A stretch of 64,000 nt of DNA from Kiritimatiellia bacterium (GTDB lineage Bacteria; Verrucomicrobiota; Kiritimatiellia; RFP12; JBMNHG01): NCBI GenBank assembly GCA_045627705.1, contig JAZQOE010000124.1, positions 17,865 through 81,864 on the forward strand, read 5' to 3'. The position numbers were made by a program, and so were the translations under genes. Positions 10,954 to 42,877 of this stretch are shown here, piece by piece. The notes beneath the pieces were generated by a model. It was not told the origin of the DNA and ran no database searches. It saw only the letters and a program-made list of their open reading frames with translations. The number at the start of each line of letters is the position of its first letter. The first letter of the stretch is position 1.

Positions 10954-11186
10954 AACGGTGGACGATTATATTTGTGCCGCGCCCGCCCACGCAAGGATTT
11001 TCTGTGTCCGCGCTTTCAGCCTGACCGCTTCCCATACGTGAGACACTTTCATCGTCTCGTCGCCGAAATAGTTGATGACCTTTGCCTTCGGGAGATCGCT
11101 CTTTGGGCACAGGGCGCCCGCCATGTCGTTTTCTGGCTGGATAGTGATTCGATGGGGCAGGGCGGTTTGCCCAAAACAGTTGCGGG

Positions 11187-11229
11187 GCGCCGCGAAACGG
11201 GTCTCCATTTCGCGGCGCGCCGCTTTTTT
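11187..11229. terminator. GC-rich hairpin carrying the dispersed palindromic motif, downstream of giant gene 1 (bidirectional terminator candidate)
   Basis: gcgccgcgaaa-cgggtctcc-atttcgcggcgcgccgc followed by tttttt on the + strand. The A-run on the other side is weak. Confidence 0.4.
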
Positions 11230-11252: not shown

Positions 11253-14200
11253 TTATCGGATGAAGATAAGCGTGCCGGGATTGACGGTTTCGCTCTCGTA
11301 GCAGCCGAGGTCGACGATGTCTTCCCTGGCGCCGGCGCGGCCCTTCCAGATACGGGGCGAGCCATCCAGGTCGATCGTCGAGAGCACGTTTTCGTTGTTG
11401 CCCGCGTCGATGGCGAGGCTGTTCGAGCGCAAGTGCGCGTCGAAGGCGGGATCGCTCCAGAGGACCGACGTGTTCTTGAGACCGGGATTCATGAGCATTA
11501 CGTTCGCGCTGCTGTTGGTCTCGTAGCCGCGGCCTTCCTCGATGTTCCAGAGAATGGTGTCATAGAGGTACAGGTGCGTGCCGGGCTCGTGAATCATGGC
11601 GCCGTCGGGCGGGATGAACGAGAGGATGCCGTCGCAGATGATCGAATTGTAGAATCGCGGGAAGATGTAGCGGCCGTTGTAGCCGCCGGTGTTCCCGACG
11701 AAGGTGCAATTGCGGATGTGCGGGTAGGAGGCATACCCGTGGAAGACGCCGGCGGGGGTGTAGTTGCCCGCGAAGAGGCAGTCGTCGAAGGTGCAGGTCG
11801 GCGGATTCTTGTTGTCGTTGTTGAAGTAGTTGATTCCGAAGACCGCCCCTTCGCGGCCGCCGAGGAACTTGCAGCGGCGGACATTCAGCGAGCCACCGTT
11901 GCGTCCGAAGAGGGCCGAGGCGCGATAGGCGTCGCTGAGCTGGTTGTTGGACTGGGTGACGGCGTTGTTGCGGAATGTGCAGTCTTCGAGGGTCACGTAG
12001 ATGTTCACTTCCATGCCGCCGAAGACGGTCGCGTTGTCGCTGTCGTTGTCCGCAAAGAGACAGTTCTTCGCGGTGAACACCTGCTGGTTGTTCAGCACCT
12101 GCTTTTCGAGGTAGATGGCGGAGTGACGGACCATGTTCGTGAAGACGCAGTCGATTGCGGTCACATCGGCGTTGTCGCGCTGGGCGATGCCGCCGACGGC
12201 CGCCTTGTTGTTTACGGACTGCGTGAAGACCGAGTTGGTCACCACTGCCGTGGCCGATACGACATGGAGGGCCATCGAGCGGGTGTCGCGGAAGGAGAGG
12301 TTCGCGATGCGGACCGCTTCGGTTCCGGTTACTGACACCAGTGTATCGGCCGTATTGTCGCCGGTGAGGATGCAGCCTTCCGCCGCGGAGGTCGTGTCGC
12401 CATCGGCTGAGCAACCGATGAGGTCGATGCCCGCGGCATTGAGCGGGAAGGATTCCTGTGCGGTCGTGTAGTTGCCGGGGAGGAGACGGACTTCATCGCC
12501 GACCGCGAGATTCGAGATCGCGAAGGTCGCGGTGCGGAGCGGATCGTCCAGGGCGCCAGTCGCGGCGTCGGAGCCATCCTTCGGATCGACGTACAGGTAG
12601 CCGGGGTGTGCGATGACGGTGAGGATGATGGTGTCGGTGCCGGTTTCCTTGAAGATGAAGCCGCCGCCGATCGTCACCTCGATCGTGTTGATGCCGTTGC
12701 CGCCGGTGACGGTGAGGCTGCCGGACGAGGCATGCTCGTCAACATCGATGTAGGCATTGCCGTTCCATGCGGCCGAGCTGGTGCCGGTCTCGAACGGGCC
12801 GTTCACGACGATCGGCAGGCGGGTCGTGGCGAGGATGCCCTGCTCGAACAGGGAAACCGTGAACCCGCGGGTCGCGCCCTGGCGGAGGAAGAACCTGGTG
12901 TCGCCACCGATTGTCACGAGGTTCGACGACGGGAAGACGTCGATCGCGAACGGCGCGATGCCTTCGGAGGTCCCGGACTCGGAGAGGACCAGGCGAGTGA
13001 TGGTCTCGGCGCAATCCGAGGCGACAGTGACAGGCAGATCGACTGGGCCGGCGCCATCGGGGATCGTCAGCGTCTCTGGGCCGGAGAGACCTTCGCCGTA
13101 TTCGATAGCGACGGTGACGGGTCCGCTGGCGGCGGGGGAGACGGAGACCTTGGTCGTGTAGGTGCTGCCCTTGAACACGTAGAGGGCGCCAGGCACTGGA
13201 ATCTGGAAGGCCGGCACGGGCGAAGCGTGGAAGGTCGATTCGTAGCAGCCGAGGTCGGCGGTTTCGATGGCGTCGCCGTCGTTGTCGGCGATGCGGGCGT
13301 TGCCCGCGAGGTCAATCTTGGTGCTCGCCACGGAGTTTACGCCGGCGTCAATCGCGGGCGAATACGGGCGGGGACGCGCGTCGAAGGCGGGATCATCCCA
13401 GGATACATCGCAGTTTTCAATCCACGGATTGTCCGTCGATACTCCATAGCTCGCCTGTTCGTTGTATCCGTTGCCGAGATCGGTGTTCCAGAGGATGACG
13501 TTCTGGAGGCGGAGCCTCGTGGCATCGTCGTTCATGTCGGACGAAGAGTGCGTGAGTGCGCCAACGTCGCAGAGGATGCAGTTGCGCAGGTAGGTGTCGC
13601 AGACATATCCGGTGAAACCGCCGCCGCAGCGGATGAACGTGCAGTTGTCGATGAGCCAGTTGGTGGTGTAGCCATTGATGATGTGGTGCGTGACGGGGTT
13701 GTCCACGAAGAGCGAATCCTGGACGCTGCAGGAAGTGCTGGAGCTCGTGCCGAAGAGGGCGCGGCCGGTATTGCCGAAGAAGCGGCAGCGGGCGAGATGC
13801 GCGGAACTCCAATTTCCCCATGCGCCCCAGATGTAGATGCAGGCGGCGGCCTGGCCATCGTGCAGCTTCTGGCTCAAGGCGCTGTTCGTGGCGAAGAGCG
13901 TGTCGTCCACCCTGATGTCGAAGCGCGAACCCGAAGGGGCCGCGATCGCGCCGTAGGAATTGGAGTTGCCGTTGAAGGCGCAGTTCGTCGCGTTGAATGT
14001 CGCGTTGTTGTTCTCGCTGCACCAGACGGTGCCGATTCGGCGGATGGAGAGGAACTCGCATCCGGCGGCATTCGCGATGCCGTTGTTGCTGATCTGGATT
14101 GCGCCGGCGGCGTTGTAGTTTTCGACCGACTGCGTGAAGAGGATGTTTTCGAGACTGGCTTCGGCGGCGCTGACATCGACCAACGGGCCTGTGGTGTCGC

Positions 14201-16742
14201 GCAGGTGGAGTCCACGGATGGAAGAGACCGCGTTGCCGTCCGCGAAGGTGAAGAGTGACTGGGCCTCGTTGCCGCCATCGACCACGCGATCGGTACGGAG
14301 GGAGGTGCCGGAGGCGTCCCAGTCGAGGATGCTGACACCATTTGCCAGGCTAATCGGGAAGACTTCGCCGTTGGCCGCGGAGTAGATGCCCTCGCCGACA
14401 TAGACCGTGCCGCCGATTGAATCGACTTCGGCGAGCGCGCGGGTGATGGAGCGGAATGGCGCTTCGGGGCGGCCCGTTCCGGTGGAGTCGTCGCCAAGGG
14501 CGGAGACGAAGACGTCCGACCAGCGGGTCGAGGTGATGTTGGCGACGGCGCTATCGGTTAGGCCGGCGTTGTTCATCACGGTGAGGGTGACTTGGCCGGG
14601 GGTGGTGACCCTCGCGGGGGAGACCGTCATCTGGTAGATTCCGCTTTCGCCGCCGAGGGAACCGTTATCGATCATTTCGGGCGTGACAAGAGTGCCTTCG
14701 ACGCTGTCGAGCATGATCTCGATATCCTTTGCGATCGCGGTCGGGGTCTCGACGGAGTAGGTGATCGTATCGACGAAGCTGTTGATTTCTTCCTCGTTGA
14801 GGGCACGTTCGCGGACCCACAGGACGTTCGTGACAACGCACGACGATTCGGGAGCCGTGAAGGAAATGTTCCTGGGCGGGTTGAGGCTGTCGTAGAAGAT
14901 CCAGGCGGAATCGGAGATCGAACCAGGATCCGAGGAGGTCGTGAACTGGTATTCGGAACTGCCGGTGAAAACGGGAAGTCCGGCGACATTGAGCGTGGAC
15001 GACGCCGTGTAGTCCCCGCTGCCGGTGACTGGATCGACGAGGGAGAAGGAATAGGGCGAGAACTGATAGGTCAGGTCGTCGAAGTAGTTGCCGTCGGCAT
15101 CGGTGATGCGCAGCTGCATGTAGTCGCCGCCGCCGCCTTCCTGGAGCTTGATGGTGATCGAATTCAGACCGGGGTAGAGCCTGCCTTCGGAAACATATTC
15201 GCCACCGGATCCGCCATTGGACACCTGCAGGATTCCGTTGTTCCAGACGCGGATGCCGTCGTCGTTGTAGTGGCGGAACCAGACTTTACGCTCGACCTTG
15301 TCGGGCATGTTGATGTAGATGTGCCAATACTTGATGTAGTCTCCGCGGTCGGGGGTGGGACTCCAGCGTCCGCTTTCGTCGGGGCAGTCCATTTCTGTCC
15401 AGACAAGGCTGCCGCTTGTGGGTGTCGCCCCGAGGACGCCATCGTAAACGAGGCCGTCGTAGGGGTACTGGTGCGCCTGGCCGCCGAAATTAGCGAGCTG
15501 GTCGCCATCCACGCCGCCAGTAGCACCGGAGGCGATCCAATCGTCGTTGAAGTTCGCGCCGAGGTGGAGGAGGCGCTTGAAGTAGCTGTGGGGAAGAGGG
15601 GTGGCGGCATTGCCCATGCCGATTTCCGAAGCAGCGAAGCCGATCGCCGTGACATCGGCCGTGACGGCCGTCACATTGCCGGCGTTGTTGACGACGCTCG
15701 CCGTGACCTTGGTCGTTCCAAGCGCGGAAATGGAAGACGGCGTGACGCTCATCGCGAATACTCCGAGCGGATCGCCGTAGGACGCGATGACATCCAGGGC
15801 GGAAAGTTTGCGGGGCGTATCGCCCTTGTTCAGCATGAGCGTGATGTCGCGCGTGGTGACTGTCGGCGTCGCGGTCGTGTAGGCGATCGAGCCATTGACC
15901 GACACTGGTTCGGCGTCTGTCTCCCCCGTGCGGAACCAGGCGGTGAAAATCACGTCGCCATCGGTGGGCGGCGCAGGGAAATCGATGGTCTCGGCGGGGA
16001 TCGTCCCTGCGATGTATCCATTCCATTTGTTTGCGTCGGGCTGGGCTTCGCCGATGGTGATCTGGTACTGGGTCGCTCCGAAAACGACCGGCATTTCCGC
16101 GATTTCCACCGCATTCGTACCGGTCATGGACGTGTTGCCGGTGATGGGGTTGCGGAGCGCCAGGTTCTCGGCATGGTGCCCAATGATTTCAATTTCGAGG
16201 TAGCCGGTGTAGCCATTGTCCTGCGGCCCGAAATTGATTCGGATTGCCTTTGCCGCGGCGAAGATGAAGCCATCGTCGGGGTTGGCGAACTTGGCGAAGC
16301 AATTGGCGGAGTTGCCGTCGTATGCGAGGGCGCTGTCCGGGATCGTCTCCCAGGATTCATCGCCCTTCAACGCCTCGATCGAGACAATGTTGATTCCATC
16401 GCGTCCGCTGTCGTTCCACTGCGAGTAGATGTTGATGCCGGAAATGGCGCATAAGACATCGAATTCGTAGGTCAGCGAACCATTGTTGCCGATCGTATAG
16501 CGTTCGGGATTGCTGCTGCCGTACAGGCCATCGGTCAGGCGGTCTGTTCCACCAGTGCCTTCGGCTCCGGCGCTGCCGTTGGCCACGGCCGTCGGGGTTT
16601 TGCCCAATATCAGATTGTCTGCGGCCGGGGTGAAACCGCCGGACGAGAGCGTTGCCCCGGTTGTCCAGACATTTGCCGCGGACGCGCAAGCGGCTGAAAG
16701 CGCCGCGGCCGCGAATAAACGAGCGATAGAACGTAACGACAT
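11253..16742 (-). CDS. giant secreted beta-helix protein, paralog 1 (1829 aa). Signal peptide, discoidin-like N-domain, PA14-like domain, Ig-like modules, two right-handed beta-helix modules each ending in DLGCYE, and a C-terminal ...PGTLIFIR tail.
   Basis: Signal peptide MSLRSIARLFAAAALSAACASA. PA14-like segment LLHLGANFNDD...NDDGIRVWNNGIL...IKLQEGGGGDYMQL. Beta-helix modules begin with YVDPKDGSDAATGALDDPLRTATFAI (DUF1565-like). Choice-of-anchor-Q-like motifs DPAFDARPRPYSPAIDAG...DLGCYE. The terminus reads VDLGCYESETVNPGTLIFIR. Confidence 0.8.
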   Translation of the reverse strand: MSLRSIARLFAAAALSAACASAANVWTTGATLSSGGFTPAADNLILGKTPTAVANGSAGAEGTGGTDRLTDGLYGSSNPERYTIGNNGSLTYEFDVLCAISGINIYSQWNDSGRDGINIVSIEALKGDESWETIPDSALAYDGNSANCFAKFANPDDGFIFAAAKAIRINFGPQDNGYTGYLEIEIIGHHAENLALRNPITGNTSMTGTNAVEIAEMPVVFGATQYQITIGEAQPDANKWNGYIAGTIPAETIDFPAPPTDGDVIFTAWFRTGETDAEPVSVNGSIAYTTATPTVTTRDITLMLNKGDTPRKLSALDVIASYGDPLGVFAMSVTPSSISALGTTKVTASVVNNAGNVTAVTADVTAIGFAASEIGMGNAATPLPHSYFKRLLHLGANFNDDWIASGATGGVDGDQLANFGGQAHQYPYDGLVYDGVLGATPTSGSLVWTEMDCPDESGRWSPTPDRGDYIKYWHIYINMPDKVERKVWFRHYNDDGIRVWNNGILQVSNGGSGGEYVSEGRLYPGLNSITIKLQEGGGGDYMQLRITDADGNYFDDLTYQFSPYSFSLVDPVTGSGDYTASSTLNVAGLPVFTGSSEYQFTTSSDPGSISDSAWIFYDSLNPPRNISFTAPESSCVVTNVLWVRERALNEEEINSFVDTITYSVETPTAIAKDIEIMLDSVEGTLVTPEMIDNGSLGGESGIYQMTVSPARVTTPGQVTLTVMNNAGLTDSAVANITSTRWSDVFVSALGDDSTGTGRPEAPFRSITRALAEVDSIGGTVYVGEGIYSAANGEVFPISLANGVSILDWDASGTSLRTDRVVDGGNEAQSLFTFADGNAVSSIRGLHLRDTTGPLVDVSAAEASLENILFTQSVENYNAAGAIQISNNGIANAAGCEFLSIRRIGTVWCSENNNATFNATNCAFNGNSNSYGAIAAPSGSRFDIRVDDTLFATNSALSQKLHDGQAAACIYIWGAWGNWSSAHLARCRFFGNTGRALFGTSSSTSCSVQDSLFVDNPVTHHIINGYTTNWLIDNCTFIRCGGGFTGYVCDTYLRNCILCDVGALTHSSSDMNDDATRLRLQNVILWNTDLGNGYNEQASYGVSTDNPWIENCDVSWDDPAFDARPRPYSPAIDAGVNSVASTKIDLAGNARIADNDGDAIETADLGCYESTFHASPVPAFQIPVPGALYVFKGSTYTTKVSVSPAASGPVTVAIEYGEGLSGPETLTIPDGAGPVDLPVTVASDCAETITRLVLSESGTSEGIAPFAIDVFPSSNLVTIGGDTRFFLRQGATRGFTVSLFEQGILATTRLPIVVNGPFETGTSSAAWNGNAYIDVDEHASSGSLTVTGGNGINTIEVTIGGGFIFKETGTDTIILTVIAHPGYLYVDPKDGSDAATGALDDPLRTATFAISNLAVGDEVRLLPGNYTTAQESFPLNAAGIDLIGCSADGDTTSAAEGCILTGDNTADTLVSVTGTEAVRIANLSFRDTRSMALHVVSATAVVTNSVFTQSVNNKAAVGGIAQRDNADVTAIDCVFTNMVRHSAIYLEKQVLNNQQVFTAKNCLFADNDSDNATVFGGMEVNIYVTLEDCTFRNNAVTQSNNQLSDAYRASALFGRNGGSLNVRRCKFLGGREGAVFGINYFNNDNKNPPTCTFDDCLFAGNYTPAGVFHGYASYPHIRNCTFVGNTGGYNGRYIFPRFYNSIICDGILSFIPPDGAMIHEPGTHLYLYDTILWNIEEGRGYETNSSANVMLMNPGLKNTSVLWSDPAFDAHLRSNSLAIDAGNNENVLSTIDLDGSPRIWKGRAGAREDIVDLGCYESETVNPGTLIFIR

Positions 16743-31345: not shown

Positions 31346-34300
31346 ATGTCGTTCAATAAATCCCGCTCGTGTCGGTTGTTCGCCGGCGCAGTTGCCGCCT
31401 TGGCGGCGTTGTTGCCATCGGTTTCCCGTGGCGATGTCGCATTGTCGGGCCAGTTGCCATCCGGATACTGGACAGACTTGCTTCACCTCGGCTCAAATTT
31501 CAATACCGATGATTTGGTCCAGGGTGGCGACGATTGGCTTGCGGGGTGGGGTGGCCAGGCTAACCAGCACCCTTATCCCGGGCAGAAGTACACCGATCTG
31601 CGGACTTCCGGCTCCACGGCTACTCCGGGTTCCCTTGTCTGGACACCGTCTTCTTTCGATGGTGGCATCTGGCAGCCAAGCAACCGCGATTCATACACGA
31701 AATTCTGGCATGTCTATGTCATCGTGCCGGGGACCAGTCCCCGCGAGGTGTATTTTTATACTCGGCAGGATGACGATGTCCGCGTCTGGAACAATGGCAT
31801 CCTGGCTTTCGAAAGCATCGGCTGGGATAACAATGCCGAGAAGGGGCCTTTCCCCGCAGTATTGGTTCCCGGGCAAAATTCGATAACCATCAGGCTCGAC
31901 GAGGGCACCGGCGGCGACTACATGGCTATCCGTGTAACCGACCGCAATAACAACCCATACAGCGATCTCACCTATTCGCTCGTCCCTAGTCCGGAGTTTT
32001 GCGATCCGCTCGCAGGCATTTCGGGGTTTACCTCGACCAACGCCGCCAAGGTTGCGTTCCTGCCTTCTTTGCCGACTGCCACCGAATACCAGTTGTCGCT
32101 TTCCAATGACCCCGCCGAGCTGGATACCAACGGCTGGCTCGCTTATACCGAGGGCTTGCAGCCTGATTCTATCATCGACTTCCCCAAGCCGGCCACAAGC
32201 CTGGCTTCGATTGCCATCTATGCCTGGTTCCGCACCAATGGGGACGACTCCACCATTGAGTCCGTCTCAAATTCAATCCTCTACAATGTCACCCCTCCCG
32301 TGGCCGTGACAAAGGATATCGTTGTCCCAATCAACCCCGCGGCCGGCCGCGAAATCCTGCCCATCGAAATCGATGCCGGTTCACATGACGACTTTGTCGG
32401 CGTGCGCAGCATGGCGGTCTCCCCCGGCAAGATCACCGGCAGCGGACCCGTCACTCTCACCGTTTACAATTCCCTCGGCGTCGCCGGTACCGCCACGGCC
32501 CAAATTACCGCCGTTCCCGCCGAAGGCCCGCTTCCCCACGGCAATTGGACGACAATGCTCCACCTGGGTACCATTTTCAACCAGGATGACCTTTCGAATT
32601 CCGGCGGCATCGATGCCGACCATCTCGAATCGTATGGCGGACAGGCCAACCAGAAGCCTTACCATGGCCTCACATACGATGGTCTTCCAACGGCCCTGCA
32701 TGGTACCGCTCCGCTCACTTGGACGGCTTCCTACGATTCCGATGGCCACTGGGAGCCTTCCGGCCGCGACAACTATATCAAGTATTGGCATGTCTATCTC
32801 AATGTCCCCGGCCCGACAAACCGTACCGCGCGCTTCAATTTCCTCCATGACGATAACGTCCGCGCCTGGAATAACGGTTCGCTTTTCTACTCCCGAAATT
32901 ACGATGGCGCATGGCATTCCGTCGATACTCCTCTCGTTCCCGGCTTGAACTCCATTACTTTCAAGCTTGAAGAGGGCGGCGGCGGCGACTATTTCGAGGT
33001 CAACATGACCGACACCGCCGGCAATTTCATGGATGATGTCACCTTCCAGCTTGATCCTACTGAGTTCAAGATCGAGAACCCGATTACGGGCAGCGTCGAT
33101 TTCCTCGGCACAAACGCCCTCCGCGTGGCCAAGATGCCACGCGATCCCGGCGCGACTGCCTACCAGTTAACGCTCAGCGGCGATGAGGCTTCGATCGATT
33201 CCGACAATTGGCTCGAATACTTCCCCGGCATGACTCCTTCCGATTTGTTCTCTTTCGCCGAGCCAGCCGCCGACGGTCCGATTACGATCCACGCCTGGAT
33301 GCGTTCCTCCATCGGTACGAACCACTACGAGGGCCCGTCGATCACCTACACCCACGACGTCCCGATCGTCAAAGTGAAGCCGGCCGACCTCGACATCGAC
33401 CCCGTCAACGGCACCACCGTGCTGCCTTCGGATATCGATGATGGCACTTCCGATCCTGTCTCCGGGATCTATTCGCTCTCGGTCGTGCCACCTGTAATCT
33501 ACGAACCCACGGATGTCACGCTCGTCGCGATGAACAACGCCGGCCTCGTTTCCACCGCCACGACCTCGGTCGCCCCGTCGTTCTGGGCGGCTCTCGATGT
33601 CGTCGGCGACGATACCGCATACTCCACCCTCGAAGCCAGCTTCCAGGCCGTCGCCTACGGTTCCCCCGCGGCGACTGCCACGGTGTTCTGCTCGTGGAAT
33701 TTCGGCGATGGTTCCGCCGCCGTCGAAGGCCAGGACCTTTTCTCCACCACGCACCTCTATGATCGCCCCGGCGCATTCGATGTCTCGCTGACGATGACCA
33801 GCGCCCTCGGCGATGTCTCGGTAACCAATATCGTCAAGGCGATCAAGATTCTTGGCGACCGCTTTGTCGCTTCCGCCGATGCCGGCGCAGGCGTTTATCC
33901 GTACACCGACGAAACCCTCGCCAGCTCCGACATCGCCGCCGTAGTCGCCGCCGCGCAGCAGGCTTCCGCCGCCGGCGCCGAAGGCGTGGTCGTCGAGGTC
34001 GGGCCGGGCAGCTACGATCTTACGACGCAGATCGACCTCGTCGAGCCTATCACCCTCCTCGGCGTCGCCGGCCCCGCGGACACGCATCTGCGGCAGACCG
34101 TCGATCAGCTGTGCGTTGTCACCGTCTCCACGAATGCCACCGTCGCCGGTCTCACGCTCCACGGCAAGTTTATCTCCAATGACAACCGCGTTGGCGGCGG
34201 CATCCGCATGACTTCCGGCGTCGCCACCAATATCGTCGTCACCGATTGTACGGGCGGTGGCCACGCCATAGGCCCGCTGTATGGCTCCGCCTATCTCGAT

Positions 34301-36370
34301 GGCGATGCGTACATGGTTGACAGCTCAGTCGTCAACAACCGCAACTGGTACAATGGCGGCGCCCTCTGGATCAAGGGCTCCGCCATCGCGGACCGCTGCG
34401 AAATTGCCTACAACTACGGAAGCGCCCAGCACCACTCCGGCGATGGCGGCGCGGGCGTTCGCATGGAGTCCGGCACCGTCCGCAACTGCTTCATCCACCA
34501 CAATGAATCCATCTACCACGCCGGTGGCGGCGTTCGCATAGACAATGGTCTCCTGGAGAACTGCACGATCGTGGCCAACCAGGTCGGCGCGTCCGACAAT
34601 GTGTCCGGCATGGGCGCCGGTGGCGTCCGCCACAACGGCGGCACCGTCCGCAACTGCATAATCTACGGCAACCATGACTATGCCGGAACCCCGTCCGATT
34701 ACGCCGGTACTGGCGGCGCCACCTATTCCTGCGCCCCCGAACTCGTGAGCGGCACGGGCAACATCGCGCTCGATCCGCTGTTTGCCGATGTCGCGTCGGG
34801 CGACTATCGCCCCCAGGCATCGTCGCCATGCGTCGATTCCGGCACGGCCATCGATCCTTCGGTTGCGCTCGACTTCTCTCTTGGCGCGCGCGTTGTCGAT
34901 GGCAACGGCGATGGCACCCCCGCTATCGACATGGGATGCTTCGAGTACGTCCGCGACACCTCGATCTTCGACTGCTCGTTTGTTGTCGAAGGCGACTCCG
35001 CCGCGCTTGGTTCTCTTGACGCATCCTTCACGGCCACGCTCTACGGAAGCTTTGCCGCCACGTCTTCCGTGACTTGCGCCTGGGATTTCGGCGATGGCTC
35101 CGAATTGGTCACCGGCCACAATCTCTTCGAGGTCGGGCACAAGTACGATTCGCTCGGGCTTTTCACGGTGACCCTCTCCGTGGTCAACTCGCTTGGCGAA
35201 TCGGTCTCCTTCGCCCGCCCCGACTGCATCTGCGTCCTTTCCTCCCAAGTCTATGCCGCGACCAATGGCGCCGCGATCTTCCCGTACGCTACTCCCGAAA
35301 CCGCGGCGACCGACCTCGGCGAGGCGTTCAAGGTCGTGCCGCGCGCATTCGACTGCGGCGCCACTTCCGCCGTTGTCTCGATCGGACCCGGCGAATTCAC
35401 GATTTCGTCGGAGTTCGCGCTTGACAAGCCAATCACCGTCATCGGCTCCGGACGCGACGCCACCCACGTGCGGCAGGTCTCCGACGACCAGCGCGTTTTC
35501 GTGATATCCGATCCCGCCGCGATTGTCTCCAGCCTCACGGTCCATGGCAAATATACCCCGAACAACCGCTGGGGCGGCGGTATCCATCTGACTGGCGGCA
35601 TGGCCACCAATGTCGTCGTCACCGGCTGCACAGGCGGCGGCCACGCGATTGGCGGACTCTGCGGTTCGGTCTATCTCGGCGGCAGCAACGCCACCCTCGT
35701 CGATAGCCTTGTCATCAGCAACCGCTATGATTATAACGGCGGCGGCGTCTGGCTTGAGAGCGACAGCGCGCTCGTGGACCGCTGCGAGATCGCATGGAAC
35801 CGCGGTTCGATGCAGCACCACTCCGGCGACGGCGGCGGCGGCGTCCGCATTTGGGTGGGTACCGTCCGCAACTGCCTCATTCACCACAATACGTCCATCT
35901 TCCATCCGGGTGGCGGCGTCCGCAACTATTTCGGCACGCTCGAGAACTGCACCATCGTCGATAACTCCGTCGAACAGAATGGCATCGGCAATGGCGGGGG
36001 CGTCTTCCAGCAGGGCGGTACCGTCCGCAATTGCATCATCGCCGGCAACCGCTGCGACGATACGAACCAGGGCGGCGTCAATGCTGGTCCCGAAGACTAC
36101 CACATGCACGACAGCCAGTATGTAGCCAACACCTGCGCCCCCGAAGTTCCGGAGGAGAACGGCAACATCCGTCTCGCGCCCGTATTCAAGGACGCCGCGA
36201 ATTGCGACTACCACATCGGCTTCTCCAGCCCGACTGTCGGCGCCGGCTCCTTCGTCGAGTGGATGGACGGCGCCGTCGATCTCGATGGCGAAATCCGCGT
36301 CCTCGGCCGTGCGGTTGACATGGGTTGCTACGAGACCCGCCTCCCCGGTACGCTGATCTTCATCAGATAG
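31346..36370 (+). CDS. giant secreted beta-helix protein, paralog 2 (1674 aa). Signal peptide, two PA14-like domains, Ig-like modules, two beta-helix modules ending in DMGCFE/DMGCYE, and a C-terminal LPGTLIFIR.
   Basis: Signal peptide MSFNKSRSCRLFAGAVAALAALLPSVSRG. PA14-like DLLHLGSNFNTDD...QDDDVRVWNNGILAF...IRLDEGTGGDYMAI, duplicated as TMLHLGTIFNQDD...HDDNVRAWNNGSLFY...FKLEEGGGGDYFEV. Beta-helix and choice-of-anchor-Q-like motifs DPLFADVASGDYRPQASSPCVDSG...IDMGCFEY and VDMGCYETRLPGTLIFIR at the terminus. Confidence 0.8.
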   Translation: MSFNKSRSCRLFAGAVAALAALLPSVSRGDVALSGQLPSGYWTDLLHLGSNFNTDDLVQGGDDWLAGWGGQANQHPYPGQKYTDLRTSGSTATPGSLVWTPSSFDGGIWQPSNRDSYTKFWHVYVIVPGTSPREVYFYTRQDDDVRVWNNGILAFESIGWDNNAEKGPFPAVLVPGQNSITIRLDEGTGGDYMAIRVTDRNNNPYSDLTYSLVPSPEFCDPLAGISGFTSTNAAKVAFLPSLPTATEYQLSLSNDPAELDTNGWLAYTEGLQPDSIIDFPKPATSLASIAIYAWFRTNGDDSTIESVSNSILYNVTPPVAVTKDIVVPINPAAGREILPIEIDAGSHDDFVGVRSMAVSPGKITGSGPVTLTVYNSLGVAGTATAQITAVPAEGPLPHGNWTTMLHLGTIFNQDDLSNSGGIDADHLESYGGQANQKPYHGLTYDGLPTALHGTAPLTWTASYDSDGHWEPSGRDNYIKYWHVYLNVPGPTNRTARFNFLHDDNVRAWNNGSLFYSRNYDGAWHSVDTPLVPGLNSITFKLEEGGGGDYFEVNMTDTAGNFMDDVTFQLDPTEFKIENPITGSVDFLGTNALRVAKMPRDPGATAYQLTLSGDEASIDSDNWLEYFPGMTPSDLFSFAEPAADGPITIHAWMRSSIGTNHYEGPSITYTHDVPIVKVKPADLDIDPVNGTTVLPSDIDDGTSDPVSGIYSLSVVPPVIYEPTDVTLVAMNNAGLVSTATTSVAPSFWAALDVVGDDTAYSTLEASFQAVAYGSPAATATVFCSWNFGDGSAAVEGQDLFSTTHLYDRPGAFDVSLTMTSALGDVSVTNIVKAIKILGDRFVASADAGAGVYPYTDETLASSDIAAVVAAAQQASAAGAEGVVVEVGPGSYDLTTQIDLVEPITLLGVAGPADTHLRQTVDQLCVVTVSTNATVAGLTLHGKFISNDNRVGGGIRMTSGVATNIVVTDCTGGGHAIGPLYGSAYLDGDAYMVDSSVVNNRNWYNGGALWIKGSAIADRCEIAYNYGSAQHHSGDGGAGVRMESGTVRNCFIHHNESIYHAGGGVRIDNGLLENCTIVANQVGASDNVSGMGAGGVRHNGGTVRNCIIYGNHDYAGTPSDYAGTGGATYSCAPELVSGTGNIALDPLFADVASGDYRPQASSPCVDSGTAIDPSVALDFSLGARVVDGNGDGTPAIDMGCFEYVRDTSIFDCSFVVEGDSAALGSLDASFTATLYGSFAATSSVTCAWDFGDGSELVTGHNLFEVGHKYDSLGLFTVTLSVVNSLGESVSFARPDCICVLSSQVYAATNGAAIFPYATPETAATDLGEAFKVVPRAFDCGATSAVVSIGPGEFTISSEFALDKPITVIGSGRDATHVRQVSDDQRVFVISDPAAIVSSLTVHGKYTPNNRWGGGIHLTGGMATNVVVTGCTGGGHAIGGLCGSVYLGGSNATLVDSLVISNRYDYNGGGVWLESDSALVDRCEIAWNRGSMQHHSGDGGGGVRIWVGTVRNCLIHHNTSIFHPGGGVRNYFGTLENCTIVDNSVEQNGIGNGGGVFQQGGTVRNCIIAGNRCDDTNQGGVNAGPEDYHMHDSQYVANTCAPEVPEENGNIRLAPVFKDAANCDYHIGFSSPTVGAGSFVEWMDGAVDLDGEIRVLGRAVDMGCYETRLPGTLIFIR

Positions 36371-36392
36371 CCGGTTCCCGGTCGCAAAAAAA

Positions 36393-36439
36393 CGGAGCGC
36401 CGCGAAATGCCCCCGCATTTTCGCGGCGCGCCGTTTTTT
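36393..36439 (+). terminator. rho-independent terminator of giant gene 2 (built from the dispersed palindromic motif)
   Basis: aaaaaaacggagcgccgcgaaatgc-cccc-gcattttcgcggcgcgccg followed by tttttt. Confidence 0.7.
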
Positions 36440-36541: not shown

Positions 36542-39500
36542 ATGTCCATGCGTTTCGTTTCGCAAGTGCTCGCGGCGGCGGCCGCTGGCCTTTTCCTTTG
36601 TGCGTCGGCCAAGGCCGATGTCGCGATGACCGGTCCTCTGCCCAATGGGTACTGGACGGACCTCCTCCATCTGGGAGCCAACTTCCAGACCGATATGTTT
36701 ACCTCCAATGGCCCCAACCTTGATACCGACCTTCTTTCTGGTTATGGCGGTGAAGCCAACCAGGAACCTAGCGACGGCCTTGTCTATGCCGGCCTATCGA
36801 GTGTCAAGAGCACATCGCAGGAGCCGAGCGGCCAGCTTACCTGGACGGCGATGCACGATTCCGATGGCATTTGGCAGCCTAGCAATGTCGATAATTACAT
36901 CAAATACTGGCACACATATCTGATTGTTCCAGGCGCCACGGCCCGCGGCGCCAAGATCTACACTCGCCAGGATGACGACCTCCGCATCTGGATCAACGGC
37001 GCAGTTGCCGTCAACAGCCCCGGTTATTCCGACAACGAGAAGGGCCCGTTCGATATTACCCTCCAGCCGGGCATGAATTCGGTTACCATCAAGCTCGTAG
37101 AGGGTGGCGGCGGCGACTACATGGCCGTCCGGATGACCGATACAAATGGCCAGTATTTCGATGATATCACATACGCGTTGTTTCCCGCGAAGCTGACGCT
37201 CGTCAACCCTGTCACCGGCAGCGAAGGCTACATCTCCGGCGATAGCGTCAAGATCTCCAGGTTCCCGTCTGTCGCCGACGCGGTTTCCTACCAGTTCACG
37301 CTTTCCGACGATCCATCGTCCGTTTCCGGCGCCGCGTGGAAGCCGTATGTGAATGGCATGATCCCCGAAGACGAAGTCTCCATCACTCCGCCGGCGGCAA
37401 GCGGCGATGAGGTCACGGTCTATGCGTGGTTCCTCCATTCCGACGGCACCCTTTCCTGCGATTCGGATTCAATCGTCTGGACATCCGCCGCCCCGACGGC
37501 AAAGGCCAAGGCATCGCTCTCGATCCCTATCAATGTCACGGCCGGCACTGTCATTGCGCCCGAACTGGTGGATGACGGCTCCGAAAGCGGCGACATCGGC
37601 ATCTACTCGGTGTCTGTCTCCCCGGACCGCATCTACGGCGACACTGATGTGACGCTCACGGTCATGAACAACGCCGGCGTCATCGCCACCGATACCGTGA
37701 GGGTCTCCCTCTCTTCCAAGCTCGACATCCATGTTTCGAACAGTGGCGACGACACCACCGGCGACGGCACGGTCGGCAACCCATACGCCACGATCCAGAA
37801 GGCGGTCTCCGTGGTTGCGGACGGCGGGGCGATCTACCTGGCCTCCGGCACCTACTTCGACGGAGAGTCGTATCCCTACGCCGTTTCAGGCATCTCCATC
37901 TGCAAGGAACCCGGCGACGCCGGCACTGCCATCCTCGATGGCGGCAACGCTTCCGGCAATCTCTTCACCGTGTCTTCCGGCTCGCTCGCCCTTGTCGACC
38001 TCGTTATGATGGGCACGACCGACGAACTCGTCTTCGCCACGCAATCCGCCCTCGCCGTCACAAACTGCGTCTTCACCCAGACCCAGCAGAACCGCGTTGG
38101 CTATAAGACGGGCGCCATCGAGCTGAACACGCATTCCTCCCTCGACGCATTCGGCTCCACCTTCCGCGACATGACCGTGACGGCAGTGATCCGCCTGTCC
38201 GGCAGCAATTCGGAAGGCAGCGTTGTCACCCTGCGCAACTGCCTGTTCGAGAACAACGCTGTCGGTTGCGACCTCGGCAGCAACAACCATGAGGGCAGCC
38301 TGATCTATACCCGCGTCAATGGCGGCTCGGCCTTCAACTTCTACGACACGGTCTTCCGCAACAACTCCACGTATGATTGGGGAGTACACGACGCATACAT
38401 GTCCCCGATCGTCTATTCGGACTTCACGCCCCTGGACATCGACCGCTGCCAGTTCATCGGCAACAGCGGCGGCAACCTGATCGGCATCTGCTACGCCAAC
38501 GGCGACGTCCGCAACTCGCTCTTCGTCGAAAATCGCACGCCTTACTCCATCGCGCACGGCTATTCCTCCACCGTCTCGTTCCGCAACTGCACCTTCGTGC
38601 GTGGCACGGGCGGTTTCACCGGCTACAGGGCCCATTCCGAACTCTACAACTGCATCCTCTACGGGCTGGACCACTTGAACCATCGGGATCCGCATGGTGC
38701 CAGTGCCGATTATCTGACGCTCCATGATTCCTTCATCTACGGCATCGACATGGCTTCCAGCGCCGAGCTCGGCTACTTTATCGGCGGCAGCTCGAATGTG
38801 ACGATCGGCACCGACCCGCTGCTCGCCAATGTGGACGTCCTTCCGTCCGACGCCGGCTTCGATGCCCGCCCGCTTCCCTACAGCCCCGTGATCGACGCCG
38901 GCGACAACTCCGCCATCCGCGCCAGCGCGACCGATCTCGCCGGCAGCCCCCGCGTGGCCAACAACTCGGACGCCTCCTCCGCGACAGTCGATCTCGGATG
39001 CTACGAATCGCTCTTCCACGCCGCCATCCAGCCGACCTTCCAGTTCCCGGTCCCCGGATCGCTCAGCGGCTACCGCGGCGTGACATACCAGGTTCCTGTC
39101 ACCATTTCCCCAGCCGTTTCCGGTTCCGTCTCCGCCCAGATCAGCTACGGCGAGGGCGTGACCGGTCCCGCCACCCTTGAGTTCCCCAATGGCGCAGGTC
39201 CCGTCACCCTCGAGCTCGAACTCCTCTCCGGCGACGCCACTTCCGCTCGCGTCACCATCACCGAAAGCGGCATCTCCCAGGGTGTGCTTCCCGGCAGATT
39301 CGATGTGTTCATGGACGACATCGTGATCACCGTTGGCGGCGTGACGAACATCTACGTCCGCGAAGGCACCAGCTTTGACATTCCGGTCTCCCTCGCCCTC
39401 GAGGGCGCAGTCGCCCCTGGCGACGTAGCCTTCGCGATCGACTCGGTTTCGGGATCCGGTACCAGCCAGGCCTCATGGATCGGCGGCGAAGCCGTGGTTC

Positions 39501-42500: not shown

Positions 42501-42877
42501 TCTACAAGGATGGCGCAATCAGCAAGGATAGCAACGATAGCGGTCACTCCTACATCCGCGACTCGCTGGTCTTCGGCGATCCGGTCGAGGGCGACCTCGG
42601 CTATGTCGAGGAAGCCGTCGGAACGGTTGTGACCGGCGTTGACCCGCTCCTCAAGAACGCGGATGTCGCCTGGGATGCCGAAGGCTTCGACGCCCATCTG
42701 AAGAATAACAGCCCGGCTATCGATGCCGGCAACGTCGATCTGGTCTCCGGCGATCTCGACCTCGATGGCACCGCCCGCCTGAAGTATGGCCACACGAAGA
42801 AGTTTGGCCTCAAGGTCGATTTTGGATGCTACGAAGCCACCGTCCCCGCCGCCGGCACGCTTATCTTCCTCAAGTAG
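36542..42877 (+). CDS. giant secreted beta-helix protein, paralog 3 (2111 aa). Signal peptide, PA14-like domain, Ig-like modules, three beta-helix modules (two forming a tandem ~640-aa duplication), and C-terminal ...AAGTLIFLK.
   Basis: Signal peptide MSMRFVSQVLAAAAAGLFLCASAKA. PA14-like DLLHLGANFQTD...QDDDLRIWINGAVAV...IKLVEGGGGDYMAV. Repeated module boundaries VDLGCYESLFHAAIQPTFQFPVPG (~38990) and VDFGCYESLFHAEVEPTFRVPLQG (~40905). Terminal VDFGCYEATVPAAGTLIFLK. Confidence 0.8.
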   Translation: MSMRFVSQVLAAAAAGLFLCASAKADVAMTGPLPNGYWTDLLHLGANFQTDMFTSNGPNLDTDLLSGYGGEANQEPSDGLVYAGLSSVKSTSQEPSGQLTWTAMHDSDGIWQPSNVDNYIKYWHTYLIVPGATARGAKIYTRQDDDLRIWINGAVAVNSPGYSDNEKGPFDITLQPGMNSVTIKLVEGGGGDYMAVRMTDTNGQYFDDITYALFPAKLTLVNPVTGSEGYISGDSVKISRFPSVADAVSYQFTLSDDPSSVSGAAWKPYVNGMIPEDEVSITPPAASGDEVTVYAWFLHSDGTLSCDSDSIVWTSAAPTAKAKASLSIPINVTAGTVIAPELVDDGSESGDIGIYSVSVSPDRIYGDTDVTLTVMNNAGVIATDTVRVSLSSKLDIHVSNSGDDTTGDGTVGNPYATIQKAVSVVADGGAIYLASGTYFDGESYPYAVSGISICKEPGDAGTAILDGGNASGNLFTVSSGSLALVDLVMMGTTDELVFATQSALAVTNCVFTQTQQNRVGYKTGAIELNTHSSLDAFGSTFRDMTVTAVIRLSGSNSEGSVVTLRNCLFENNAVGCDLGSNNHEGSLIYTRVNGGSAFNFYDTVFRNNSTYDWGVHDAYMSPIVYSDFTPLDIDRCQFIGNSGGNLIGICYANGDVRNSLFVENRTPYSIAHGYSSTVSFRNCTFVRGTGGFTGYRAHSELYNCILYGLDHLNHRDPHGASADYLTLHDSFIYGIDMASSAELGYFIGGSSNVTIGTDPLLANVDVLPSDAGFDARPLPYSPVIDAGDNSAIRASATDLAGSPRVANNSDASSATVDLGCYESLFHAAIQPTFQFPVPGSLSGYRGVTYQVPVTISPAVSGSVSAQISYGEGVTGPATLEFPNGAGPVTLELELLSGDATSARVTITESGISQGVLPGRFDVFMDDIVITVGGVTNIYVREGTSFDIPVSLALEGAVAPGDVAFAIDSVSGSGTSQASWIGGEAVVPAGAHSSTGSIHIEAGSGINEIVLTSGATFAETGTGTVALRVIAYPGFLVVDPENGDDDASGTIGNPMRTIDRALSVLSAGDEIHLLPGTYNASNVAFPIEPGTIALVGCDSTGALAEDSSLCVIDGANAVKNLVKYVGVSGSSTGRIANVWLRNSMEEAVYCEDSDVVVSNDFFTQSAPKGENGGALRVHNISHVEADDCCFSGMVRRAVVNCTAVDSSAAKSFTARRSVFIDNTNYQASIGANDGGPFTITVEDSDFIRNCGNANTGVHDAYASAVAYVNNDHLIMDRCRFFGNTGNHIIGQEYMGNYTCRISNSLFVENNNNKSAFHGYSGHIEIHNCTFLRNSGGYAGRIITTAIYNGIFVDDGALSKADTGDGDESSRIQLHDCIVHNITGGQRFNAAASTGVVDVEPKLANAGVAWDAEGFDARPLPYSPAIDAGDNAFVQGEYDLAGNPRIADNTDSGSAVVDFGCYESLFHAEVEPTFRVPLQGSIAGYRGVTYSIPISIAPAVSGPVEAVVTYGPGLAGPETLSFEDGADTVILALEVLDSDATFAQVVISESGTEHGILDGVYDIFMDDLVVSVEGKLNFFVRGGAEIDIPFSLALDGAVAPGDVAFTVSAIQGDGTSTAEWVGGEPLIPSGYHSSTGAIHVVGGSGLNTVRVTTSASAFAETDQPIADIGIVAHPGYLYVDPVNGSNANIGSLEQPLATIGFALSVLNAGDEVRLLPGTYSAAAEAFPYQPGMIRIVGCDATGAPAEDPSLCVIDGGNAVASLFRYELVSGDMAGHIANVWLRESISQAIYCIDSDLVVSNAFFTQGVGNLDECGGIRAHNVCNTEMIDCCFSGMVRRAAVQCSSDGGTGPLVVRNCQFIDNTLGYASVAYYDGGNRGFSATLVDCDFIRNVGQPGRGLPDCSACAAAYVNDNALYIDRCRFLGNGGNQVIGGRNTPCSIANSLFAGNNTTDSNFKGWNTRPPVVNCTFVGNSGGYDGYGFSPYFRNCVFYKDGAISKDSNDSGHSYIRDSLVFGDPVEGDLGYVEEAVGTVVTGVDPLLKNADVAWDAEGFDAHLKNNSPAIDAGNVDLVSGDLDLDGTARLKYGHTKKFGLKVDFGCYEATVPAAGTLIFLK

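What the first reader, a model, noticed from the sequence alone, without database searches (positions are those of the whole stretch)
11253..11312. Conserved extreme C-terminal tail 'GCYE-x(4-7)-GTLIF[IL][RK]' on all three complete giant paralogs: candidate novel short sorting/secretion tag
The three complete giant proteins end in ...VDLGCYESETVNPGTLIFIR, ...VDMGCYETRLPGTLIFIR and ...VDFGCYEATVPAAGTLIFLK. Choice-of-anchor-type DxGxYE domains are by definition found immediately upstream of C-terminal sorting signals such as PEP-CTERM or LPXTG. Here the DxGCYE motif is followed by only 10-13 residues. These end in a strictly conserved G-T-L-I-F-(I/L)-(R/K). No transmembrane helix follows, and no downstream in-frame continuation exists after the stop codons (checked). 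This does not fit any described C-terminal sorting signal (PEP-CTERM, LPXTG, GlyGly-CTERM, T9SS CTD). It may be a minimal recognition tag, for example a terminal beta-strand for an outer-membrane or secretion partner. An unusual feature is that Cys replaces Ala in DxGCYE in every module of paralogs 1-3. Paralog 4 has the canonical DLGAYE. The other two tails are at 36316..36370 and 42818..42877.
Basis: seen in the sequence. Interest (0 to 1): 0.8.

Follow-up and report, generated by a model that had tools for sequence, protein, structure and literature searches.

The report
Seven-residue C-terminal tag on giant surface proteins
Three giant exported proteins in this window end in the same seven residues (GTLIF[I/L][R/K]), and closely related tails also end unrelated giant exported proteins in other bacteria of the Kiritimatiellia/Opitutales group, so it looks like a portable, undescribed C-terminal tag whose function has not been tested.

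Summary
The three complete giant ORFs (11253-16742 -, 31346-36370 +, 36542-42877 +) end in DxGCYE-x(4-6)-GTLIF[IL][RK]-stop. Each stop is followed by a strong terminator hairpin.

The tail extends beyond these paralogs. Variants (GTLLLMR, GTLLLVR, GTLIIVK, GTVLMLK, GTLIMIK, GSLFIIR) end other choice-of-anchor-Q beta-helix proteins from Kiritimatiellia-type contigs. The same kind of tail also ends proteins with no detectable similarity to the window's:
- a LamG/PATR-like family in Kiritimatiellia and Opitutales (PKGTLIFIR, PKGSVVVLR, PRGGLFIIR, NKGLMLFLR);
- one cadherin-like fragment (SGTLIFIR).

The consensus is G-[TS]-four aliphatic/aromatic residues-[RK]-COOH. All carriers with complete N-termini have Sec signal peptides. 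Neighbouring secreted enzymes lack the tail.

No NCBIfam sorting-signal model matches it, although a synthetic PEP-CTERM control did match. It lacks the transmembrane segment that defines PEP-CTERM, LPXTG and similar signals.

My best reading (about 0.5) is a new short sorting or retention tag for giant surface proteins, recognised by an unknown partner. The rivals are a structural terminal beta-strand and a vestigial, shortened PEP-CTERM. Structure predictions were uninformative. No partner was identified. The Cys in DxGCYE is not specific to the tail.

The parts
11253..16742 (-). Giant paralog P1 (1829 aa). It has a Sec signal peptide, two DUF1565/beta-helix modules each ending in DLGCYE, and the C-terminal tail.
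11256..11276 (-). Tail GTLIFIR of P1. The stop codon is at 11253-11255, the spacer SETVNP at 11277-11294, and DLGCYE at 11295-11312.
31346..36370 (+). Giant paralog P2 (1674 aa). It has a signal peptide, PKD domains, two beta-helix modules (DMGCFE, DMGCYE) and the tail.
36347..36367 (+). Tail GTLIFIR of P2. DMGCYE is at 36317-36334, the spacer TRLP at 36335-36346, and the stop at 36368-36370.
36542..42877 (+). Giant paralog P3 (2111 aa). It has a signal peptide, three DUF1565/beta-helix modules each ending in D[LF]GCYE, and the tail. It is identical to library protein P0003 (NCBI, contig of 86,553 bp).
42854..42874 (+). Tail GTLIFLK of P3. DFGCYE is at 42818-42835, the spacer ATVPAA at 42836-42853, and the stop at 42875-42877.
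61169..64000 (+). Paralog 4. It has a signal peptide and a beta-helix module with the canonical DLGAYE at 63662. It runs off the window, so its C-terminus is unknown.
11182..11223 (-). Intrinsic-terminator-like hairpin (GCGCCGCGAAATG...CGTTTCGCGGCGC, then a U-run) about 30 nt after the P1 stop.
36387..36439 (+). Terminator-like hairpin flanked by an A-run and a U-run, after the P2 stop.
42903..42941 (+). Terminator-like hairpin (perfect 17-bp stem) followed by a U-run, after the P3 stop.

Best explanation
The tail is a short, portable C-terminal tag with consensus G-[TS]-(four aliphatic/aromatic residues)-[RK]-COOH. It is carried by giant, Sec-exported, adhesin-like surface proteins of Kiritimatiellia and related PVC bacteria such as Opitutales.

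Proposed mechanism (inferred, not shown). After Sec export, the Gly-Thr turn exposes a four-residue hydrophobic beta-strand. That strand ends in a basic residue next to the free carboxylate. A dedicated partner recognises this peptide, probably by beta-strand augmentation. The partner could be an outer-membrane or periplasmic export component, or an anchoring component. It directs this class of cargo to the cell surface or retains it there.

Functionally the tail would sit where PEP-CTERM, a T9SS C-terminal domain or an OMP beta-signal sits in other lineages. It has none of their defining architecture.

Shown here: the motif, its position at true protein ends, its occurrence in unrelated protein families, its restriction to exported giant proteins in the sampled loci, and the absence of a matching curated model.

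Inferred: that it is a recognition signal, and everything about the partner.
For: 1. There are three tails in the window and none elsewhere in six frames. Terminators follow directly.

2. Choice-of-anchor-Q relatives found by an exhaustive profile search end the same way:
- P0074/P0153 GTLLLMR (labelled Kiritimatiellia bacterium)
- P0086 GTLIIVK
- P0147 GTLIMIK
- P0061 GSLFIIR
Adjacent genes in L028 (GTLLLVR) and L030 (GTVLMLK) do too.

3. Unrelated contexts carry it:
- L004, a 1996-aa signal-peptide protein of a sheep-rumen Kiritimatiellae MAG, ends ...LVLVPHPKGTLIFIR* with no DxGxYE.
- Its homologs were found by homology, not by the tail. They end PKGSVVVLR (P0161), PRGGLFIIR (P0163) and NKGLMLFLR (P0160, Opitutales). 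Together with L004 these are four of the five complete C-termini in that family; the weakest hit, P0162, ends differently.
- P1 and P0161 share no significant similarity.
- L025, a cadherin-like fragment, ends ...VENTVASGTLIFIR*.

4. All carriers with complete N-termini have signal peptides.

5. Signal-peptide enzymes next door lack the tail. These are the SASA esterase and PL8 lyase in the window, and the GH109 and a multi-GH protein in L031.

6. At the same position after DxG[AC]YE, two other library proteins carry PEP + about 17-20 hydrophobic residues + basic tails (P0072, P0114). So this is a position where anchors are swapped.

7. No NCBIfam CTERM model matches. A synthetic consensus PEP-CTERM control scored 34.9 bits on TIGR02595.
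Against: - No functional data exist and no candidate partner was found. The neighbourhoods of tail genes share nothing consistent.
- The number of independent non-CAQ contexts is small: one family and one fragment.
- The two exact GTLIFIR hits outside the window were found by searching for that very string.
- In every context the tail follows a beta-strand and a turn, so it could simply be the last strand of a hairpin.
- Four or five hydrophobic residues are too few to span a membrane.
- The two AlphaFold models have pLDDT below 50 over the whole C-terminal region. They neither support nor refute an exposed tail.
Confidence: 0.5

Rival explanations
1. Structural element only. The tail is the last beta-strand of a terminal hairpin. 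It packs against the preceding strand and caps the hydrophobic core of whichever beta-rich domain comes last. It is conserved for folding and stability, not for sorting.
For: - MAFFT aligns the tail with the segment that follows internal DxGCYE motifs (...SLFHAAIQPTFQFPVPG). An invariant Phe lies 11 residues after the Glu in both internal and terminal modules of P1 and P3.
- In the LamG-like family the tail follows strand-turn-strand-P[KR]G, e.g. SLVPADGSLVLRVAPRGGLFIIR.
- In L025 it follows VLVKVTVEN-TVASG.
Against: - The same seven-residue pattern, ending exactly one basic residue after the hydrophobic run, follows three unrelated domain types.
- The spacer to DxGCYE varies from 4 to 6 residues and in sequence.
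- Four consecutive hydrophobic residues, rather than an alternating pattern, are unusual for an edge strand.
- AlphaFold did not place the tail as a confident strand, but those models are of low confidence throughout.
Confidence: 0.22
2. Vestigial or miniaturised PEP-CTERM-type signal. The tail descends from a tripartite signal (motif + transmembrane helix + basic cluster) whose helix collapsed to four residues. It may be a remnant, or a weak interfacial membrane anchor, with or without residual recognition by an exosortase-like enzyme. This origin is compatible with the best explanation.
For: - Miniature tripartite layout: Pro-rich or Gly-Thr/Ser motif, hydrophobic run, terminal base.
- P0061 ...YEATPPPGSLFIIR lines up with P0114 ...YEFVPEPSLCVVFLLLAFIVRKNR at the same position after DxGAYE.
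- LamG-family tails read V-x-P-[KR]-G-[TS]-hydrophobic. This resembles V-P-E-P-[SG]-[ST]-L of PEP-CTERM (consensus as described in PMC1569441, and my own knowledge).
- PEP-CTERM is common in Verrucomicrobiota (PMC1569441; bioRxiv 10.1101/2023.06.07.544157).
Against: - There is no PEP motif, and Pro is absent from many tails (IRVGTLLLMR, VISGTLIIVK, LDAGTLLLVR).
- TIGR02595 and all other CTERM models fail to match, while the control matches.
- No PEP-CTERM-like ends occur in about 130 kb of sampled Kiritimatiellia-type DNA.
- An eight-residue similarity cannot be tested for homology.
Confidence: 0.15
3. Shared ancestry or chance only. The tail is conserved in the window because the three genes are recent paralogs, and resemblances elsewhere are coincidental.
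For: - The three window genes are paralogs.
- The L004 and L025 hits were retrieved with a pattern that encodes the tail itself.
- 16 of 17 genome hits and 9 of 10 metagenome hits to that pattern were chance matches in short or nonsense ORFs.
Against: - The terminal modules are only 28-40% identical, yet the tail is nearly invariant.
- The homologs of L004 were found by homology over the body of the protein. Four of the five complete C-termini in that family (L004, P0160, P0161, P0163) carry variant tails.
- My rough estimate of the chance frequency of G-x-hydrophobic x4-[RK]-COOH is about 1e-4 per protein, from residue frequencies.
- None of about 135 other choice-of-anchor-Q proteins among the top hits ends this way.
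Confidence: 0.05

Closest known systems
PEP-CTERM / exosortase sorting signal (TIGR02595, PF07589)
   Same: - Extreme C-terminal position on signal-peptide-bearing, highly diverse surface proteins of diderm bacteria, including the PVC group.
- Several copies per genome region.
- Occurs directly after choice-of-anchor domains.
- Order of parts: small motif, hydrophobic stretch, basic end.
   Different: - No Pro-Glu-Pro motif.
- The hydrophobic run is 4 residues instead of a transmembrane helix.
- One basic residue instead of an Arg-rich cluster.
- No HMM match although the control matched.
- Cleavage, and any enzyme, are unknown.
Other tripartite C-terminal signals (LPXTG, GlyGly-CTERM, MYXO-CTERM, JDVT-CTERM, CGP-CTERM and similar)
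   Same: A short C-terminal element shared by otherwise unrelated exported proteins within a restricted lineage.
   Different: - All of these have a membrane-spanning segment.
- The shortest described, CGP-CTERM, is 20 residues (bioRxiv 10.1101/2023.06.07.544157). This tail is 7.
- The Cys of DxGCYE is not part of the tag.
T9SS C-terminal domain (TIGR04183 and relatives)
   Same: A C-terminal export and attachment signal on giant beta-helix or adhesin-like proteins. Many choice-of-anchor-Q proteins among the library hits end in T9SS-like domains (judged by eye).
   Different: The T9SS CTD is a folded beta-sandwich of 70-100 residues (my own knowledge). Here only 11-13 residues follow the last domain motif, and no model matches.
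C-terminal beta-signal of outer-membrane beta-barrel proteins (recognised by BAM)
   Same: A short C-terminal hydrophobic beta-strand motif with a conserved Gly a few residues upstream, read by strand pairing. This is the closest analogy for the proposed mechanism.
   Different: - The beta-signal ends in an aromatic residue and alternates polar and hydrophobic residues as the last strand of a barrel (my own knowledge).
- This tail ends in Arg or Lys and has four consecutive hydrophobic residues.
- Its carriers show no barrel domain in the Pfam or NCBIfam scans.
Choice-of-anchor Q domain (NCBIfam NF041518)
   Same: The DxG[AC]YE motif before the window's tails is the end of this domain.
   Different: The tail is not part of the model, which ends at the Glu. 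The tail also occurs without this domain.

Membership tests
Choice-of-anchor Q domain (NF041518) | HMM score at or above the curated cutoff (25 bits), with the match ending at the DxGxYE motif | tested here: met
   P1 scores 41.8 bits and P3 66.5 bits. P2 scores 24.9 bits, just under the cutoff. Matches end at profile position 57 of 58, on the DxGCYE.
PEP-CTERM (TIGR02595) | Near-invariant Pro-Glu-Pro signature motif | tested here: not met
   The tails read NPG, LPG, AAG, RVG, ISG, DAG and HPKG. None has PEP. Definition from PMC1569441.
PEP-CTERM (TIGR02595) | Predicted transmembrane helix after the motif | tested here: not met
   Only 4 hydrophobic residues (5 counting the first Leu) lie between Gly-Thr and the terminal base, and the stop codon follows at once.
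PEP-CTERM (TIGR02595) | Basic (Arg-rich) cluster at the end | tested here: not met
   There is a single terminal Arg or Lys.
PEP-CTERM (TIGR02595) | Match to the HMM | tested here: not met
   No hit at E<=10 for ten tails, nor for 70-residue C-termini. A synthetic consensus PEP-CTERM scored 34.9 bits in the same run.
PEP-CTERM (TIGR02595) | Co-occurrence with an exosortase (EpsH/Xrt) gene in the genome | not testable with these tools
   Only about 64 kb of this genome and 6-25 kb pieces of related genomes could be read. No whole-proteome access.
Tripartite C-terminal sorting signals in general (LPXTG, GlyGly-CTERM, MYXO-CTERM, PGF-CTERM and similar) | Signature motif, then a hydrophobic segment long enough for a transmembrane helix, then a basic cluster (bioRxiv 10.1101/2023.06.07.544157) | tested here: not met
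   The hydrophobic segment is 4-5 residues. No NCBIfam CTERM model matched, whereas the control peptide also drew VPDSG, MYXO, JDVT, PFE and PGF models.
T9SS C-terminal domain | Folded C-terminal domain of roughly 70-100 residues that matches TIGR04183-type models | tested here: not met
   Only 11-13 residues follow the last choice-of-anchor-Q motif. There is no such hit in the whole-protein NCBIfam or Pfam scans.
OMP beta-signal | C-terminal aromatic residue ending the last strand of a beta-barrel | tested here: not met
   The terminal residue is Arg or Lys in 14 of 17 tails. No barrel family was detected in the carriers.
Generic attributes of a C-terminal sorting signal (Haft criteria) | Extreme C-terminal location on proteins with N-terminal signal peptides | tested here: met
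Generic attributes of a C-terminal sorting signal (Haft criteria) | Shared by otherwise unrelated proteins, several per genome, in a restricted lineage | tested here: inconclusive
   There are three contexts: CAQ beta-helix, LamG/PATR-like, and cadherin-like. There are 2-3 carriers per sampled locus. All labelled sources are Kiritimatiellia/Kiritimatiellae or Opitutales. No whole-genome counts are available.
Generic attributes of a C-terminal sorting signal (Haft criteria) | Strict co-occurrence with a processing or export protein family | not testable with these tools
   This needs phylogenetic profiling over complete proteomes.

The most novel reading that the evidence does not exclude
A seven-residue, non-tripartite C-terminal peptide (G-[TS]-hydrophobic x4-[RK]-COOH) is the address label of a so far unknown surface-protein sorting or secretion pathway in Kiritimatiellia and related PVC bacteria. 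It is read through its free C-terminus by dedicated machinery unrelated to sortases, exosortases or the T9SS.
Probability: 0.35. Interest if true: 0.85.

Novelty: new variant of a known kind. Interest (0 to 1): 0.62.

Why it matters
Known small C-terminal sorting signals in prokaryotes share one design: a motif, a transmembrane helix and a basic cluster. Each one led to the discovery of a dedicated enzyme such as sortase, exosortase, archaeosortase, rhombosortase or myxosortase.

A much shorter tag without a membrane segment, shared by unrelated giant surface proteins in a poorly studied phylum, would point to a different recognition principle. It would also point to an undiscovered partner.

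The tag gives a simple regular expression for cataloguing the surface proteome of Kiritimatiellia, which are abundant polysaccharide degraders in rumen, gut and sediments. It also makes the question directly testable by phylogenetic profiling, C-terminal peptide mapping and tag-swap experiments.

If instead it is only a structural strand, the finding is a minor annotation note.

Tried and rejected
1. Read-through or frameshift continuation after the stop. Rejected: three different stop contexts, each followed within 30-40 nt by a strong hairpin and a U-run.

2. A conserved DNA element rather than a peptide. Rejected: there are synonymous differences inside the tail, and identity falls to 23-32% immediately downstream.

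3. The Cys of DxGCYE as part of the tag, as in Cys-containing CTERM signals. Rejected: Cys is common in this motif elsewhere (129 of 768). It occurs with every kind of C-terminus and is missing from the non-CAQ carriers.

4. First word-indexed homolog search with the P1 terminal module. It found one weak hit, although close homologs and P1 itself are in the collection. This was a sensitivity failure of that tool, not evidence of absence.

5. Homolog search with the L025 fragment. Nothing found.

6. Exact look-ups of window proteins P1, P3 and P0003, and of P0147, for genomic context. Not on record.

7. Two AlphaFold2 runs (5- and 10-sequence alignments). The C-terminal region had pLDDT below 50 and the tail about 24-37, so no inference is possible.

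8. Pfam scan of short tails. Nothing found, but the two PEP-CTERM-like controls also gave nothing, so this negative carries no weight.

9. Neighbourhood search for a candidate partner. No gene family recurs next to tail genes. The window's type IV pilus/T2SS-like genes and prepilin peptidase are ordinary housekeeping neighbours.

10. Resemblance of [KR]-G-T-L-I to the prepilin cleavage site [KR]-G-F-T-L-I-E. Noted, but the topology is wrong and the basic residue is absent from the CAQ-context tails. Not pursued.

11. Enumerating the tail directly in the protein databases. Judged infeasible, because a 7-residue match cannot pass the HMMER filters or E-value thresholds.
Full report
**1. The observation**

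The window (60.4% G+C) holds three complete giant ORFs. P1 is 11253-16742 (-), 1829 aa. P2 is 31346-36370 (+), 1674 aa. P3 is 36542-42877 (+), 2111 aa. Their translations end as follows:
- P1: ...VDLGCYESETVNPGTLIFIR*
- P2: ...VDMGCYETRLPGTLIFIR*
- P3: ...VDFGCYEATVPAAGTLIFLK*

A six-frame scan finds the pattern G[TS]-hydrophobic x4-[RK]-stop only at these three sites. No internal copy of GT[LIV]I[FY][ILV][RK] exists.

NCBIfam's choice-of-anchor Q model (NF041518) ends on the DxGCYE motif. Scores are P1 41.8 bits, P3 66.5 bits and P2 24.9 bits, against a cutoff of 25.

All seven motifs in P1-P3 have Cys. A fourth paralog starts at 61169 and runs off the window. It has DLGAYE.

**2. The tail is under its own constraint, and the proteins really end there**

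The terminal modules are 28-40% identical, and the spacer differs in length and sequence. The seven tail residues are 7/7 and 5/7 identical. They are encoded with synonymous differences: GGC/GGT, CTT/CTG, and CGA/AGA/AAG.

DNA identity is 79-83% over the tail codons. It drops to 23-32% in the next 60 nt.

About 30-40 nt after each stop lies a GC-rich hairpin followed by a U-run. The folds are -44.7, -42.3 and -36.7 kcal/mol, with z-scores from -4.5 to -7.0. The three hairpins share the stem sequence GCGCCGCG[AG]AATG. These are intrinsic-terminator-like sites, so read-through into a longer hydrophobic segment is not a plausible way out.

**3. The tail outside the window, in the same domain context**

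I ran an exhaustive profile search with the last 69-78 residues of the three paralogs (alignment A1). It gave 9971 hits at E<=1e-3. Among the best 150:
- P0003 is identical to P3.
- P0074/P0153, labelled 'Kiritimatiellia bacterium', ends GCYESGTIRVGTLLLMR.
- P0086 ends GCYESDLVISGTLIIVK.
- P0147 ends GCYEATMLESGTLIMIK.
- P0061 ends GAYEATPPPGSLFIIR.

Degenerate versions also occur: PPPGSAYSFR, GLLLLVQ and GTSISVH.

Contigs carrying these genes show further carriers next door. In L028 (a 1.08-Mb Kiritimatiellia contig) a 1012-aa protein ends GCYQGLDAGTLLLVR*. In L030 a 2349-aa protein ends GCYESDKVSFGTVLMLK*.

The remaining roughly 135 choice-of-anchor-Q proteins end in other ways. By eye these are T9SS-like domains, dockerin-like repeats and a recurrent '...FYRLRV..P' ending. 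Two (P0072, P0114) have a PEP motif followed by about 17-20 hydrophobic residues and basic residues. So the position after DxG[AC]YE is one where different C-terminal devices are exchanged. Most choice-of-anchor-Q motifs, however, are internal repeats.

**4. The tail in unrelated proteins**

I scanned one genome per GTDB species for the codon pattern of GTLIF[IL][RK]-stop. There were 17 matches. Sixteen lie in short or nonsense ORFs.

The seventeenth is L004, from a sheep-rumen Kiritimatiellae MAG. It ends a 1996-aa signal-peptide protein with LamG-like and autotransporter-repeat-like modules. It has no DxGxYE, and it ends ...LVLVPHPKGTLIFIR*.

The metagenome scan gave one credible hit out of ten. 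L025 is a cadherin-like fragment ending ...VKVTVENTVASGTLIFIR*.

Those two hits were selected by the tail itself, so the independent test is the homology search with the body of the L004 protein. The hits with complete C-termini end as follows:
- P0161: ...VMPKGSVVVLR
- P0163: ...VAPRGGLFIIR
- P0160 (Opitutales): ...FVNKGLMLFLR
- P0162, the most distant (E 4e-12), ends differently.

P1 and P0161 show no significant similarity (best E 0.23 for a single comparison).

The general motif is therefore G-[TS(G)]-[LV]-[ILVMF]-[FLIMV]-[ILMV]-[RK]-COOH.

All carriers with complete N-termini have Sec-type signal peptides. Secreted enzymes in the same loci lack the tail. These are the SASA esterase at 46509-48470, the PL8 lyase at 59378-61078, and the GH109 and a 1496-aa multi-GH protein in L031.

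**5. What it is not**

Whole-protein scans found only DUF1565/beta-helix, PKD and choice-of-anchor Q. The L004 protein matched nothing in NCBIfam.

Ten tails of 28-39 residues matched no NCBIfam model at E<=10. In a control run, a synthetic consensus PEP-CTERM peptide matched TIGR02595 at 34.9 bits and also drew the VPDSG, MYXO, JDVT, PFE and PGF models. The real tails again matched only choice-of-anchor Q.

The Pfam scan of short peptides was insensitive, because the two PEP-CTERM-like controls also failed.

The defining architecture of the known small C-terminal signals is a motif, a transmembrane-length hydrophobic segment and a basic cluster (PMC1569441; bioRxiv 10.1101/2023.06.07.544157, which gives 20 residues for the shortest, CGP-CTERM). 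That architecture is not met here: the hydrophobic run is four residues and there is a single terminal base.

The Cys in DxGCYE is not special. It accounts for 129 of 768 motifs among the top hits. It occurs in 24 Cys-dominant proteins with every kind of ending.

**6. How it most likely works**

These points are shown:
- a discrete, conserved peptide at the true C-terminus;
- portability between unrelated exported giant proteins;
- restriction, so far, to Kiritimatiellia/Opitutales-type sequences;
- absence from ordinary secreted enzymes nearby.

These are the attributes that have marked sorting signals before.

The rest is inferred. The Gly-Thr turn would present a short hydrophobic strand whose end, a basic side chain next to the free carboxylate, is read by a partner. 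That partner would export or retain this cargo class at the cell surface. I put this at about 0.5.

The main rival (0.22) is a purely structural terminal strand. In every context the tail follows a strand and a turn. MAFFT also lines up its Phe with a Phe 11 residues after the Glu in the internal modules.

A third reading (0.15) is compatible with the first as an origin story. It is a PEP-CTERM-type signal whose helix has collapsed. Compare ...YEATPPPGSLFIIR (P0061) with ...YEFVPEPSLCVVFLLLAFIVRKNR (P0114).

Against that third reading, many tails have no Pro. No PEP-CTERM-like ends were seen in the sampled Kiritimatiellia-type DNA.

Both AlphaFold2 models were of low confidence over the whole C-terminal region. 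Tail pLDDT was 24-37. They decide nothing.

No gene family recurs next to tail genes.

**7. Source and limits**

The window's proteins are in the protein collection as unnamed NCBI entries from an 86,553-bp contig. The closest labelled relative of P1 is from a Kiritimatiellia MAG, at 69% identity over the last 190 residues. The assignment of the window to Kiritimatiellia is an inference from this.

Whole-proteome counts and phylogenetic profiling would settle the matter. They could not be run with the tools available.

**8. Verdict**

I rate it as a new variant of a known kind: C-terminal tags on surface proteins, but without the architecture that defines the known ones. Interest is 0.62.

Noticed in passing
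window 11182-11223 (-), 36387-36439 (+), 42903-42941 (+); related copy near 43134-43170: All three giant genes are followed by near-perfect palindromic hairpins. They share the stem GCGCCGCG[AG]AATG and are followed by a U-run; the P2 copy is also preceded by an A-run. The pattern has 10 matches in the window against 4.1 expected. They look like a shared family of intrinsic terminators or REP-like 3' elements.
   Followed up: partly
window 16857-20531 (-): This 1224-aa ORF translates to Arg/Ala-rich nonsense. It lies antisense to real genes on the + strand: a GreA-domain protein at 16929-19193, folP-like at 19237-20163 and a DAC/CdaA-like gene at 20157-20993. It is a spurious high-GC ORF, not a fifth giant gene.
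   Followed up: partly
window 2503-8737 and 49825-50805: A type IV pilus/T2SS-like cluster. It has two proteins with prepilin-type N-termini (GFTLVELALVV at 2503-3396; AFTLIELVVVL at 3393-4442, N_methyl hit). It also has PilT-like and PilB/MshE-like ATPases (6087-7253, 7145-8737), and a prepilin peptidase elsewhere (49825-50805). No link to the tail was found.
   Followed up: partly
window 52666-53679 (-): IS200/Y1-transposase-like ORF (PF01797, E 2e-14) inside otherwise housekeeping DNA.
   Followed up: no
library hits P0019, P0031, P0033, P0064, P0083, P0117, P0130 and others; L035 3092-6511 (-): Many choice-of-anchor-Q and Big/cadherin-type giant proteins from other sources end in a recurrent '...[FY][FYL]R[LIV]x[VI]xx(P)' sequence, e.g. 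TNRFLRLRVTRP and FFRLGVLR. This may be a different, unannotated class of C-terminal ending.
   Followed up: no
L025 (about 400-1800) and L036 5712-6509 (-): Two unrelated tail-bearing genes (L025 ...GTLIFIR*, P0061 ...GSLFIIR*) are each followed directly by AbiEii/AbiEi-type toxin-antitoxin genes. This is probably coincidence or related source organisms.
   Followed up: no
window 31346-36370 (P2) residues about 30-215 and 395-590; also the N-termini of P1 and P3: A repeated module of about 190 residues (…LHLG.NF…GGQANQ.P…W.P…YIKYWH.Y…R.WNNG…NSIT.KL.EGGGGDY…) has no Pfam or NCBIfam assignment. It occurs once in P3, once internally in P1 and twice in P2. Its domain family is uncharacterised.
   Followed up: no
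tool behaviour, vs 34/36/56: The word-indexed homolog search with the P1 terminal module returned only one weak hit. Yet P1 itself and a 69%-identical relative are in the same collection. Negative results from that tool should not be read as absence.
   Followed up: yes
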